A DNA stretch of 64,000 nucleotides. Origin: the human T2T-CHM13v2.0 reference genome, Homo sapiens. Under the pieces are notes generated by a model that was not told the DNA's origin, ran no database searches, and saw only the letters and a program-made list of their open reading frames with translations. A program made the translations under genes and the position numbers. Below are positions 18,077 to 21,736 of this stretch, in pieces (position 1 is the stretch's first letter; every line of letters begins with the position of its first letter). The stretch is taken from assembly GCF_009914755.1 (NCBI RefSeq), contig NC_060941.1, one strand, 5' to 3'.

Positions 18077-19268
18077 CAAAGTACCATTAAAAAAAAAAAA
18101 AAATCTTAGGTAACACATGCACTCGCCGCATCCCTGTCCTTCTCCACCACCATATTAGATCAGGTCGTAGTTCCCCATTATTGTCACCTGCTGTAAACAT
18201 TTGGAGTTTACATTCTTCAACTCAAGTGAGTCGTGATCCTGACAGAGGATTCTGATTTAACGGTCTGAGGTGGCAACCCACAGTGGTATGCTTTTAAAGC
18301 TCCTCAGGCCTTTCTAACAAGCAGGCAGGCAGAACTAGGGAAGCGTAACCCCACCCCTGCTGCTCTGGCAGGCCTGTCTTGGCCCCACTGAGTTGGAAGC
18401 ACTGCAGGACCCAGGACCAGCCTCCAGGACTCCTCCTGACAGGTTCAGAGGGCAGATTTGGGGGTGGAGGTGCTCCTCTCCCATTCTCTCCCCTGTCCAG
18501 GTCACTGAGGTGAGAGCTCAGCTTTGCTGCCTGAGTTCCTGGCAGACAGTGTTCTCTATCCCCCACCTTTCTGTAGGGTTAGCTCAGCCTGGAGGCTTGG
18601 GTTTTTTGAGGTTTCTTTGAAATCCACTCCTGGCTGGGCCACTGGGGTCAAAATCAGGATTTGGGCCAGGCAGGACACAGAGTGGGGGCGGGGAGCGGCC
18701 AAAGGCAGGCTGGGCCCCCAGAGCTGCACAATAACTGCTTTGGAGGGAGGAGGAGAGCCTGGGCAGAGAGGCTTTTGTATTTCATGGCCTGGCGTACCCA
18801 GTTTCCAGGGCAACCATGGACACCACGGTTCTGTTAGAGGTGGAAGCCAAGACCAGAAGACAGCCAATTAACATCCAGAGCCCAGTTATCTGAGCCAATG
18901 GGAAGTGGAGGTGGGCAATGGGGCTGGGAGGGATCTGGGACTGAGAAGTGCAGAGATCTGGGCGAGTTGGAGTCCCACTGGCTGTCAGGTTCAGCAGAAG
19001 CAGGGCCTGTTCCCCCCAACCCCTGCTCTGAAGGTTGTAGTGGGACACTCATAGCTGCCAGGCCTGCAGAGGCAGGAGAGGCTGAGCTCCTGGAAAGCTG
19101 CTTACAGATGCCCCTGCTCTGAATGAAGCTGTTCCTCTGGGCCAGGGTTCCCAGGGAGGGGTGTGGCACCTCGGGGAGGGTCAGCCCTGTGGCCCTGCTG
19201 GCTGCCCTCAAGACTGATGCCCTTTCTTGGCATCCCCTGCCACTGCTTCTCCGTGTGCAGACATCACC

Positions 19269-21736
19269 ATGGACAACAGCCTCCTGGCCATAGTCGTGGC
19301 CACCAGTGAGTACCTACTGCCATTCCGTGTCCCAAGGGTGGGGCAGAGGCACCTTTGGCCCCTCACTGTAGGCAAAGCCCAGATTCTTCATCTATAGGGT
19401 CACCTCAAGCAACAGCCCTCCCCAGCCAAGACTTGAGAAGTATGCTGCACATGGCTGGTCTTTGATCCCTCTGGTCCCTTCCCTGTGCCAGGTCCTATGA
19501 TGCCACAATCTTTGGTAACAAGAGGGGCTGGGCACCAGGAGCTGTTGAGCTGGGCTCTTGGGTCCTTTCCTGCCTCCTCAGATCCAGTTTCTCAGGGTAT
19601 CTGCTCCATCCCCTCCCTTTGTGTCTCTGTAAAATCTCCCTTACACACATCACCCCCTGGGCTGCAGGCAGGGAAGGGACAGGGCTACTCTGCTCCCCCT
19701 CACAAATCTCTGCCCCAGGGACTTGATGCCGTAGCAAAAAGGGATCTGCCTGCACCTCAGTTTGCCTTGCTTGTCAAGCTGGTATCAGTACCAGCCAGGT
19801 CATTCCTACACCAGCTTCTGGAGTGAATTCCAATCTGGTGAGGAGATGGGCCTGCACATGCTGGGTCCAGGCTGCCCCCTGACGGTGCCTCTTGGGGGAA
19901 GGCAGCCTCATCCACAGTGTTCATCATGGCCATCCTGCTGCTGCTGCTGCTGCACCAGCGCGACCCCCAGTGCTGCCAGGTCCTCTGCGCCTGCCACTTC
20001 TTCCGGAGTCCCAGCCAATACGTAAGCACCCCGATCCACCAACCCCTTGCCTTCATGCCCCCCACCCCCGACCCAAATCCTGACAAAAGGGCACCTGTGC
20101 TCTGGCCAAGGAGAAACAAGTGTTCAGTATGGAAAAGAAAGGGCCTTTGGAATCTTTCTCTGCAGCATCCAGCCTGGGTTCCCTCTGAGTCAGGGGAGCA
20201 GTGTGGAAAGGGTTAATAACATCTAGGCCCCTCCCTGACCATTGTTAAACATAACTCAGTGCAAGGAGCTGCTCAGTGAAGACAAGGTCTTTTTCCAGCT
20301 CCCAGGGGAAAGTGCAGAGCCCCGACTTCTGGGGAAGGGGGTAAGTGGCAACTACAGCACTGTCAGTCCTCTCCCCAGGGACAGCGTGCCATATGGCATC
20401 CTGTATAGAAAGGAAACAAAATCTGAGCTGCAGCCCCCCAGTCTCTGACACCATTCCCCAACACTGGGCACCAGACAGGATGGAGGGGTAGGGACAGGAG
20501 GTGGTTTTCTCTGACTTTCCCACCAAAGGTCATGAGACCTGGCTACCAGACAGTGACAGAATGAGCTACTGGCCAGAAAGGAGTGGATTCTCTTTACACC
20601 CTAGTGCATTTCAGAAATGCTGAGGGTCTGAGCTTTGTGCCTTGGCCCAGGTGGAGAGGATTAAAGGGATGGAGAAAGGGGCATGGAGGGAAATAAAGGG
20701 TTTGGAATCTGCTGTCTTGCACACTGACCCTGAGCTTCACCTTGAGCTGTGCTTCATGATCCCAGGGCTGCCCGCCTCCCTACTTCAGCACCATGGGATG
20801 CCACACCGAGGTCCAGCCAGTGGAAAGGAGCCGAGAGTCCCAAGGGATACAAGTGAGGCTCCCTGGGCCTGCCACCTGGGATGGGGGAAAAAGTGTGTGC
20901 TGGGGTTCTGAAGCCAGGCAAGGGACCTAGCGTGGTTAAGGGGACTAAAAAGAACGCAGGGGAGGGGAAGGATGGGATGAAGACTGGAGAGGCTTCTTGG
21001 AGGAGAGGGAGGAGCGCAATACCCCTGAACTTAGGCTTGCTCTGCAGAAGAGGACCCAGACCGAAGCTGGATAACGCTGGTGCATGCCTCCCTGGCTCCC
21101 TTGGCTTTTTTTGGTCACAGGGCCACTCCCAGGGGGGTGAGGTATTCTGTGTGGGGCTGCCCAGGAGCCACCAGCTGCCCCTGTGGCAGCCAGCTCGCCT
21201 GCCCAGCTATGAGAGTGTTCGAAAGAAGGACCGGCAGCAGCAGATTCACCAGCTGATTGCACAGAGCTTCGGGCTCCGGGCCTGCAGAGAGGTGAATGTC
21301 CAGCCTTCTCAGCCCTGGGTGCCCTGGGTAACCGAGCTTTTCACATATCGCATTTTAACACACAATACCCAATTAGAGGCCCTGGGGTCAGGAAAAGGAC
21401 CACTAGTGGAGAACTCAAGGATATGACTGGAGACCCCAGTTCACCTCTTTGTGTAGATGGTGCAGACCCCAGCCCAAGGAGGCCTAACCAGAGGGGTTTC
21501 CATGGAGCCAACATCTCCAGCGGAGATGCAGAAAGCAACAGTCCAAAGAAAGGGTGTTGCATATATGGGAAGAGGGCAAGAAAGTGGCTAATGCCTTTGC
21601 TCTCCCATCTCTCCAGCTGCCACCAAGCTATGAGGAAGCCATAAGGTCACTGCCTCCACCACCGGCCAGCTGTGGCTCTACTCAGTCATCCCAGGAAGCA
21701 GCCACCTGCCCTGCTCAGGGGAACACCACAGTGTAG
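19269..21736 (+). CDS. Candidate unannotated 5-exon gene: small single-pass membrane adaptor with PY motifs (172-176 aa)
   Basis: Exons 19269-19305, 19906(or 19918)-20021, 20766-20852, 21121-21291, 21617-21736. All introns are GT-AG with phases 1,0,0,0; no internal stop; Kozak context accATGg. Protein: MDNSLLAIVVATTSSTVFIMAILLLLLLHQRDPQCCQVLCACHFFRSPSQY-GCPPPYFSTMGCHTEVQPVERSRESQGIQ-GHSQGGEVFCVGLPRSHQLPLWQPARLPSYESVRKKDRQQQIHQLIAQSFGLRACRE-LPPSYEEAIRSLPPPPASCGSTQSSQEAATCPAQGNTTV. Confidence 0.7.

What the first reader, a model, noticed from the sequence alone, without database searches (positions are those of the whole stretch)
19261..21736. Hidden intact five-exon protein-coding gene between XYLT2 and MRPL27
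Seen in sequence: an ATG in strong Kozak context (accATGg, 19269). Exons are 19269-19305|gtgagt, ag|19906/19918-20021|gtaagc, cccag|20766-20852|gtgagg, ttttttggtcacag|21121-21291|gtgaat and tctctccag|21617-21736(TAG). Intron phases (1,0,0,0) all match and give a stop-free 172-176 aa ORF. Each of the last three exons independently carries a PY-type motif, which is unlikely by chance. The 20766-20852 exon is missing from the supplied ORF track in this frame. Inference: this is a real gene, or a very recently silenced one, encoding a small transmembrane adaptor. I do not recall a named human gene here, but cannot check annotation.
Basis: partly seen in the sequence, partly recalled or inferred. 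Interest (0 to 1): 0.92.

Follow-up and report, generated by a model that had tools for sequence, protein, structure and literature searches.

The report
Overlooked conserved human membrane-adaptor gene
Between XYLT2 and MRPL27 the human genome holds an intact five-exon gene, missing from the supplied RefSeq table but shared with fish, birds and monkeys, that likely encodes a small membrane protein predicted to recruit NEDD4-type ubiquitin ligases, though it may be falling silent in humans.

Summary
Observation confirmed. Five GT-AG exons (19269-21736) give a stop-free 176-aa frame; relatives favour the 19906 acceptor (76 of 77). It is the single human copy of an uncharacterised vertebrate family (fish label si:ch73-364h19.1), with a tree that follows species and fused gene models placing it beside XYLT2 (sparrow) and EME1 (bichir). 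Conserved anatomy: one N-terminal membrane helix, a Cys pair, three PY motifs, an invariant helix and, in tetrapods, a T-x-V tail. It likely works as a NEDD4-family ligase adaptor, but no homology to WBP1, TMEM92 or TMEM52 was found. Open point: is it still active in humans? For: frame and motifs intact, 47 of 55 conserved columns kept. Against: the one human-identical spliced record carries intron-1 sequence and uses a likely derived, frame-shifting acceptor at 21048; exon 4 differs from Old World monkeys as much as introns do; named placental models are few and two mammal-type copies look decayed. Absent from the supplied RefSeq table and from Mudge 2019's new-gene list; current GENCODE could not be checked.

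The parts
19269..19305 (+). coding exon 1 (residues 1-12 plus one base); ATG in strong Kozak context; donor GTGAGT with A at -1 where relatives imply G
19906..20021 (+). coding exon 2 (to residue 51): second half of the membrane helix and the Cys cluster (C35-C36 at 19971-19976); purine-rich, weak acceptor
20766..20852 (+). coding exon 3 (residues 52-80) with PY1 (PPPY, 20772-20783)
21121..21291 (+). coding exon 4 (residues 81-137): PY2 (LPSY, 21199-21210) and the conserved helix to about 21276, holding the protein's only two lysines (K115, K116)
21617..21736 (+). coding exon 5 (residues 138-176): PY3 (PPSY, 21620-21631), C-terminal NTTV (21722-21733), stop TAG
21048..21120 (+). 73-nt extension of exon 4 from an alternative acceptor (AG at 21046-21047), used in record P0005; frame-shifting for the 19269 frame (stop after 88 codons, 220 nt before the last junction); likely derived on the human branch
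19217..19219 (+). upstream out-of-frame ATG; with an acceptor at 19871 it gives an open 205-aa form like the pig-tailed macaque model P0009

Best explanation
This is the intact human copy of a vertebrate-wide five-exon gene, likely still expressed at low level or in few cells, whose 176-aa product is predicted to be a single-pass membrane adaptor that binds NEDD4-family ubiquitin ligases through three PY motifs. Shown: frame, exons, orthology, conserved motifs. Inferred steps: residues 3-30 act as an uncleaved anchor with the tail in the cytosol; the Cys cluster is lipidated; the PY motifs bind WW domains and release the ligase's self-inhibition; the ligase ubiquitinates a partner membrane protein and the two invariant lysines, sending both to endosomes and lysosomes; the T-x-V tail ties the adaptor to a PDZ scaffold. 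The cargo is unknown.
For: Frame and splice sites. 380 and 375 relatives in two profile searches, 111 in an unindexed search. One locus in the genome: four exon hits at E 1e-27 to 0.005, next best E 0.11. Tree follows species; sparrow model P0020 joins XYLT2 exons to exons 2, 4, 5 and bichir model P0064 joins exon 4 to EME1's last coding exons. Unnamed record P0016 has the whole five-exon product in a non-human mammal-type sequence. PY-type motifs in 74, 76 and 75 of 76 aligned relatives (PY1 pattern lenient); 47 of 124 fetched proteins end in N/S-T-x-V. One hydrophobic stretch; predicted helices 3-40 and 110-129, rest disordered (hare model, mean pLDDT 65). Human keeps 47 of 55 columns conserved in 72 non-mammal rows (hare 43 of 55, wombat 51 of 57). 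Only 5 changes plus 1 ambiguous on the human branch against 8 on the macaque branch; under assumed neutral rates of 0.025-0.03 an intact frame has P 0.11-0.07 and six or fewer changes P 0.03-0.006. Nearest named look-alikes by language-model features are BEAN1, PMEPA1/LDLRAD4, TMEM52B, MYCT1, PRR7 and Commissureless. Multiple PY motifs drive ligase activation by NDFIP2 (PMC12720080, passages); Comm needs its PY motifs for Nedd4-dependent Robo1 degradation (PMC12101832, abstract).
Against: No human record of the full canonical mRNA was found. The one human-identical spliced record (P0005) uses junctions 2 and 4 but includes intron-1 sequence and the frame-shifting 21048 acceptor. Exon 4 versus Old World monkeys is no more conserved than translated introns (6/57 vs 4/49, p 0.75; 7/57 vs 7/75, p 0.58). 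R129, invariant in 76 relatives, is S in human and marmoset. The exon-2 acceptors and donor score below all 27 annotated introns of the window in a crude matrix, though that donor is used in P0005. Loss of constraint in the recent past is not excluded (P intact 0.25-0.60 at d 0.015-0.006). Hare lacks the PY1 tyrosine. No binding, localisation or translation data exist here.
Confidence: 0.55

Rival explanations
1. A recently silenced gene (transcribed unitary pseudogene in the making): the frame survives, but human transcripts are mostly unproductive because of a weakened exon-1 donor and a new frame-shifting acceptor, as part of repeated loss in placental mammals.
For: P0005 is unproductive for the 19269 frame. 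The AG at 21046-21047 is absent from three non-human read-throughs, which have W-G where human has C-R. Donor -1 is A in human, G implied in macaque, marmoset and devil; matrix score 5.5 against 8.8. Exon and intron divergence equal against Old World monkeys. Named placental models only in marmoset, two macaques, douc, lemur and hare among the best 120 listed in each. Two unnamed mammal-type exon-4 copies break 5 and 4 of 18 invariant positions (P0204, P0214).
Against: No stop, frameshift or lost GT/AG; all motifs kept; 1 of 18 invariant positions changed. One contig is not a survey. Faulty intron-1 handling also shows in devil, lemur, macaque and P0176 models, so it is not special to human. 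The canonical 21121 acceptor scores above 21048 (8.4 vs 6.9).
Confidence: 0.33
2. An active gene whose product is mainly a trafficking or scaffold protein: the conserved helix, a tyrosine sorting signal overlapping PY2 and the PDZ tail carry the function, and ligase binding only turns it over.
For: The most invariant part is the helix after PY2 (18 invariant positions from 108 to 132), which WW binding alone does not explain. PY1 is lost in hare.
Against: Three PY motifs kept in nearly all 76 relatives exceed what turnover needs; many fish forms viewed lack the T-x-V tail.
Confidence: 0.09
3. The exons are a 3' extension of XYLT2 (read-through), not a gene of their own.
For: Sparrow model P0020 joins XYLT2 to exon 2; a pigeon model is named xylosyltransferase 2 isoform C.
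Against: Nearly all listed relatives stand alone with their own start (those searches were length-limited); the pigeon model matches only this locus; the bichir model is fused to EME1 instead, so these look like prediction errors between neighbours.
Confidence: 0.03

Closest known systems
Uncharacterised vertebrate family labelled si:ch73-364h19.1 (macaque LOC144335592 and LOC105472379, marmoset LOC108591821, hare LOC133747358, alligator LOC106737524)
   Same: Orthologue: same exon blocks, motifs and neighbours; 92% identical to rhesus over 157 columns; 176 aa like hare isoform X2.
   Different: No row for it in the human RefSeq table supplied; human has R129S, a changed exon-1 donor base and an extra acceptor. 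No paper on the family found.
BEAN1 and PMEPA1/LDLRAD4
   Same: Top named look-alikes by features (0.92-0.94); BEAN1 binds NEDD4 WW domains by a PY motif (PMC11401830, one passage).
   Different: No alignment or E-value supports kinship; only 4 of the ten best named hits shared a family. None of the 111 hits looked like another family on reading.
NDFIP1/2, SUSD6/TMEM127, Drosophila Commissureless
   Same: Membrane proteins that recruit NEDD4-family ligases by PPxY and LPxY motifs; NDFIP2 also has two PPxY and one LPxY (PMC12720080).
   Different: No sequence match; the PY motifs here span about 90 residues against 37 in NDFIP2; NDFIPs have three membrane helices (recalled); this protein has a conserved helix and tail of its own.
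WBP1/PRR7/TMEM92 and TMEM52/52B
   Same: Single-pass, Cys-flanked, PY-bearing layout; TMEM92 lies about 83 kb upstream on the same strand.
   Different: Pfam WBP-1 and TMEM52 do not hit this locus; the family profile finds nothing in those loci (best E 0.98 among 923 segments).
Late-found human genes TMEM272, H2BE1, CCDC201 (Mudge 2019, PMC6886504)
   Same: Small conserved genes missed for lack of cDNA, two of them apparently lost in rodents.
   Different: This locus is not in that paper's list of new coding genes nor in its unitary pseudogene table.

Membership tests
si:ch73-364h19.1 family (orthologue) | Sequence homology over all exons | tested here: met
si:ch73-364h19.1 family (orthologue) | Same splice positions | tested here: met
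   junctions 2 and 4 gap-free in 22 of 22, junction 1 in 16 of 21, junction 3 in 5 of 22; read-through models end their match at exon edges. Protein-level evidence only.
si:ch73-364h19.1 family (orthologue) | Same neighbours, single copy, tree follows species | tested here: met
   adjacency is inferred from two fused models and one name, no genomic DNA of other species was seen
Active human protein-coding gene | Intact frame, start, stop and splice dinucleotides | tested here: met
Active human protein-coding gene | Purifying selection on the human branch | tested here: inconclusive
   few changes and none clearly in the core, but no excess over intron controls; rates assumed
Active human protein-coding gene | Full canonical mRNA in human tissue | tested here: inconclusive
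   P0005 shows 2 of 4 canonical junctions and an unproductive form; no read data available
Active human protein-coding gene | Translation (ribosome footprints, peptides) | not testable with these tools
   no such data
Unitary pseudogene | Disabling stop, frameshift, lost start or lost GT/AG | tested here: not met
   only a weaker donor and a competing acceptor
PY-motif membrane adaptors of NEDD4-family ligases (functional kind) | Membrane anchor | tested here: met
   one hydrophobic stretch, best 19-residue mean 2.42; confident helix 3-40; orientation is inferred
PY-motif membrane adaptors of NEDD4-family ligases (functional kind) | Conserved PPxY or LPxY motifs in a disordered tail | tested here: met
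PY-motif membrane adaptors of NEDD4-family ligases (functional kind) | WW binding, ligase activation, cargo degradation | not testable with these tools
   needs experiments; no complex prediction was run
WBP-1 family (PF11669; WBP1, PRR7, TMEM92-like) | Match to the Pfam profile or to members | tested here: not met
TMEM52 family (PF14979) | Match to the Pfam profile or to members | tested here: not met
BEAN1 (PF28336) / PMEPA1 (PF27646) | Match to their helical-domain profiles | not testable with these tools
   PF28336 is not in the Pfam copy held; PF27646 was not tried; feature likeness only

The most novel reading that the evidence does not exclude
An active, never-annotated 176-aa human protein-coding gene, founding an unstudied vertebrate family of NEDD4-ligase adaptors with its own conserved helix, overlooked because several placental lineages (likely mouse among them) lost it and because a new frame-shifting acceptor on the human branch hides or throttles its mRNA.
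Probability: 0.4. Interest if true: 0.9.

Novelty: new member of a known kind. Interest (0 to 1): 0.77.

Why it matters
GENCODE's 2025 paper says large proteins are unlikely to remain to be found by PhyloCSF in human (PMC11701607, passage). An intact 176-aa, five-exon gene conserved to fish would be an exception; its exons are outside exome designs and variant annotation if it is unannotated. If instead it is silenced, it is a gene loss caught before any coding lesion, with a specific splice change to test. Either way the family is unstudied and can be knocked out in zebrafish or chicken.

Tried and rejected
Pfam on four exons: only a sub-threshold LSR match to the membrane and Cys part (17.6 bits, cut-off 25); on eight relatives: nothing below E 0.086. 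PDB by sequence: two membrane-helix matches at E 1.6 and 8.9. Foldseek against PDB: no match; the Atlas structure search gave TM 0.33 or less. The model has pTM 0.25, so these blanks say little; the wider structural search was not run. Tandem duplicate of TMEM92: no profile match. The marmoset model's 121-residue N-terminal extension is not open in human (six in-frame stops in 130 codons). The hare exon-versus-intron contrast (6/57 vs 35/69, p 1e-6) is inflated by a frame change inside the intron alignment; the marmoset contrast is weak (exon 4 p 0.046, whole frame p 0.2). Intron controls come from stop-free read-through models and are small. A bacterial promoter scan is irrelevant. Earlier findings were not available. 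Literature: XYLT2 with MRPL27, 9 papers, listing only, none on this gene by title or abstract start; the fish gene label, 0; a recalled clone name with XYLT2, 0; TOGA2 preprint, no XYLT2 or MRPL27 in the main text, supplements not seen. Mudge 2019 supplements: no gene names, no exon-4 peptide, no chr17 row with the recalled GRCh38 prefix; file S6 was held only about half and file 1 was not searched.

Full report
Observation. All introns are GT-AG, phases are 1,0,0,0, and the joined frame runs 176 codons (172 with the 19918 acceptor) to a TAG at 21734-21736. There is one hydrophobic stretch (19-residue windows starting at 3-12 exceed 1.6), a Cys cluster, PY motifs at 54-57, 107-110 and 139-142, and a C-terminal NTTV. 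The hub's RefSeq table has no row between XYLT2 (ends 16147) and MRPL27 (ends 22852).

It is a real, old gene. Exon 4 alone found 19 proteins among 21 candidates, from macaques to lungfish and medaka. Profiles found 380 and 375 proteins, of which the best 120 were listed each time: ray-finned fish (often labelled si:ch73-364h19.1), lungfish, caecilians, turtles, alligator, squamates, birds, wombat, devil, hare, lemur, marmoset, macaques and douc. All names but two are 'uncharacterized', 'hypothetical' or that label. The two exceptions are informative: a pigeon model called xylosyltransferase 2 isoform C matches only this locus, and a bichir model called EME1 joins exon 4 to EME1's last coding exons; a sparrow model joins XYLT2 exons to exons 2, 4 and 5. 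I read these as prediction fusions of neighbours, hence conserved gene order; I saw no genomic DNA of other species. A 20-protein tree follows species order and puts the window frame beside macaques. The human genome has one locus. Relatives favour the 19906 acceptor in 76 of 77 cases. Unnamed record P0016 (source tag 'lgn', not explained by the tool; I take it for an assembled transcript because it is spliced) has the whole product in a non-human mammal-type sequence.

Anatomy and likely mechanism. In 76 aligned relatives the invariant columns are a membrane leucine, the Cys pair, 18 positions from 108 to 132, and three in PY3. The three PY-type motifs occur in 74, 76 and 75 of 76; 47 of 124 fetched proteins end in N/S-T-x-V, in the sequences I viewed the tetrapod ones. 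AlphaFold2 on the hare protein gives a confident helix 3-40, a helix 110-129, a short helix 142-146 and disorder elsewhere (mean pLDDT 65, pTM 0.25). The only two lysines sit in the conserved helix and are invariant. PPxY and LPxY motifs in membrane proteins bind WW domains of NEDD4-family ligases, and several motifs together activate the ligase (PMC12720080, passages); Commissureless uses them to send Robo1 to lysosomes (PMC12101832, abstract). The nearest named look-alikes by language-model features include proteins of this kind. I therefore infer a tail-in-cytosol single-pass adaptor, lipidated at the cysteines, that recruits a ligase to an unknown cargo. Topology, lipidation, binding, PDZ use (motif class recalled) and cargo are all untested.

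Membership. It is an orthologue of the si:ch73-364h19.1 family. It is not a detectable member of WBP-1 or TMEM52, nor a detectable copy of nearby TMEM92. BEAN1 and PMEPA1 profiles could not be run. The unindexed search gave 111 hits; of the 96 new ones, 94 read as family members or fragments and 2 as repeat proteins matching PY3 by chance. So it works like known adaptors but is a family of its own.

Is the human copy active? For: no lesion; 47 of 55 columns conserved in 72 non-mammal rows are kept, similar to hare (43 of 55), P0016 (49 of 55) and wombat (51 of 57), and seven of the eight departures are shared with macaques. Polarised changes are 5 on the human branch, 8 on the macaque branch, 1 ambiguous. 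With assumed rates (branch divergence 0.025-0.03 recalled, CpG tenfold, indels one twelfth of substitutions) neutral decay leaves the frame intact with P 0.11-0.07 and gives six or fewer changes with P 0.03-0.006; at 0.015 these are 0.25 and 0.37, at 0.006 0.60 and 0.97. Constraint for most of the time since the split from Old World monkeys is thus favoured, recent loss is not excluded.

Against: record P0005 equals, residue for residue, window 19858-20021 + 20766-20852 + 21048-21291 + 21617-21736. It shows that the locus is spliced in a human-identical source at junctions 2 and 4, but it carries the end of intron 1 and uses an acceptor 73 nt upstream of exon 4, which from ATG 19269 gives a stop after 88 codons, 220 nt before the last junction, a likely decay target. 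Three non-human read-throughs lack that AG, so it is likely derived. The last base of exon 1 is A in human where macaque, marmoset and devil imply G. A crude matrix from the window's 27 annotated introns scores that donor 5.5 (7 of 27 lower), the exon-2 acceptors below all 27, and 21048 at 6.9 against 8.4 for 21121. Exon 4 differs from douc and P0013 at 6 and 7 of 57 residues, translated introns at 4 of 49 and 7 of 75: no sign of constraint there, on small numbers. Named placental models are limited to six species, all primates or hare; clusters hide members, only 120 rows were listed and I had no control for database coverage, so loss in rodents or laurasiatherians is a guess. Two unnamed mammal-type exon-4 copies break 5 and 4 of 18 invariant positions, which suggests decay in some lineages. 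Poor intron-1 handling is seen in devil, lemur, macaque and P0176 models too, so it may be an old trait.

Novelty. Automated orthologue models exist, so the gene is not new to databases. I found no paper on the locus or family. It is not among the new coding genes of Mudge 2019, whose table holds protein sequences, nor in its pseudogene table S3, read whole; file S6 was held only in part. Current GENCODE could not be consulted and may hold a model.

Verdict. Real vertebrate gene, about 0.99. Still making protein in humans, about 0.6. Ligase-adaptor role for the family, about 0.75. Interest 0.77; new member of a known functional kind.

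Noticed in passing
window 21779: The best-scoring acceptor-like site among 584 AG sites in 16300-22800 (15.1) lies 43 nt after the stop; spliced from exon 4 it would give a 38-residue tail without PY3 or the T-x-V end.
   Followed up: partly
window 21737-23900: No AATAAA or ATTAAA on the + strand before MRPL27's 3' end; only variants at 21891, 22213 and 22297. The first canonical hexamers (23643, 23746) lie inside MRPL27, so the 3' ends may overlap tail to tail.
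   Followed up: partly
window 19858-21736: P0005 reads exons 2-3 in a shifted frame and rejoins the main frame in exon 4, giving an open 204-aa product without the membrane helix; unnamed record P0176 shows a like pattern.
   Followed up: partly
window 19217-19305 and 19871-20021: The upstream ATG with the 19871 acceptor is open in human (205 aa), as in the pig-tailed macaque model; with the 19906 acceptor it forms a 103-codon overlapping out-of-frame ORF that could dampen translation.
   Followed up: partly
window 19934-19954: The CTG run coding the leucine stretch varies in length in frame: 5 leucines in marmoset, 6 in human, 7 in macaques and lemur.
   Followed up: no
proteins P0153, P0166, P0168, P0169, P0184, P0192: A second, divergent fish-type group of the family, possibly a duplicate lineage.
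   Followed up: no
proteins P0204, P0214, P0211: Decayed-looking copies: two mammal-type exon-4 frames with broken invariant positions, and one that has lost the conserved helix.
   Followed up: partly
L006 and L007 (G000:C2:87984355-87984672 and C2:86932240-86932557): Two intronless WBP-1 family copies inside open 206-codon frames, plus several stop-bearing copies near chromosome ends.
   Followed up: no
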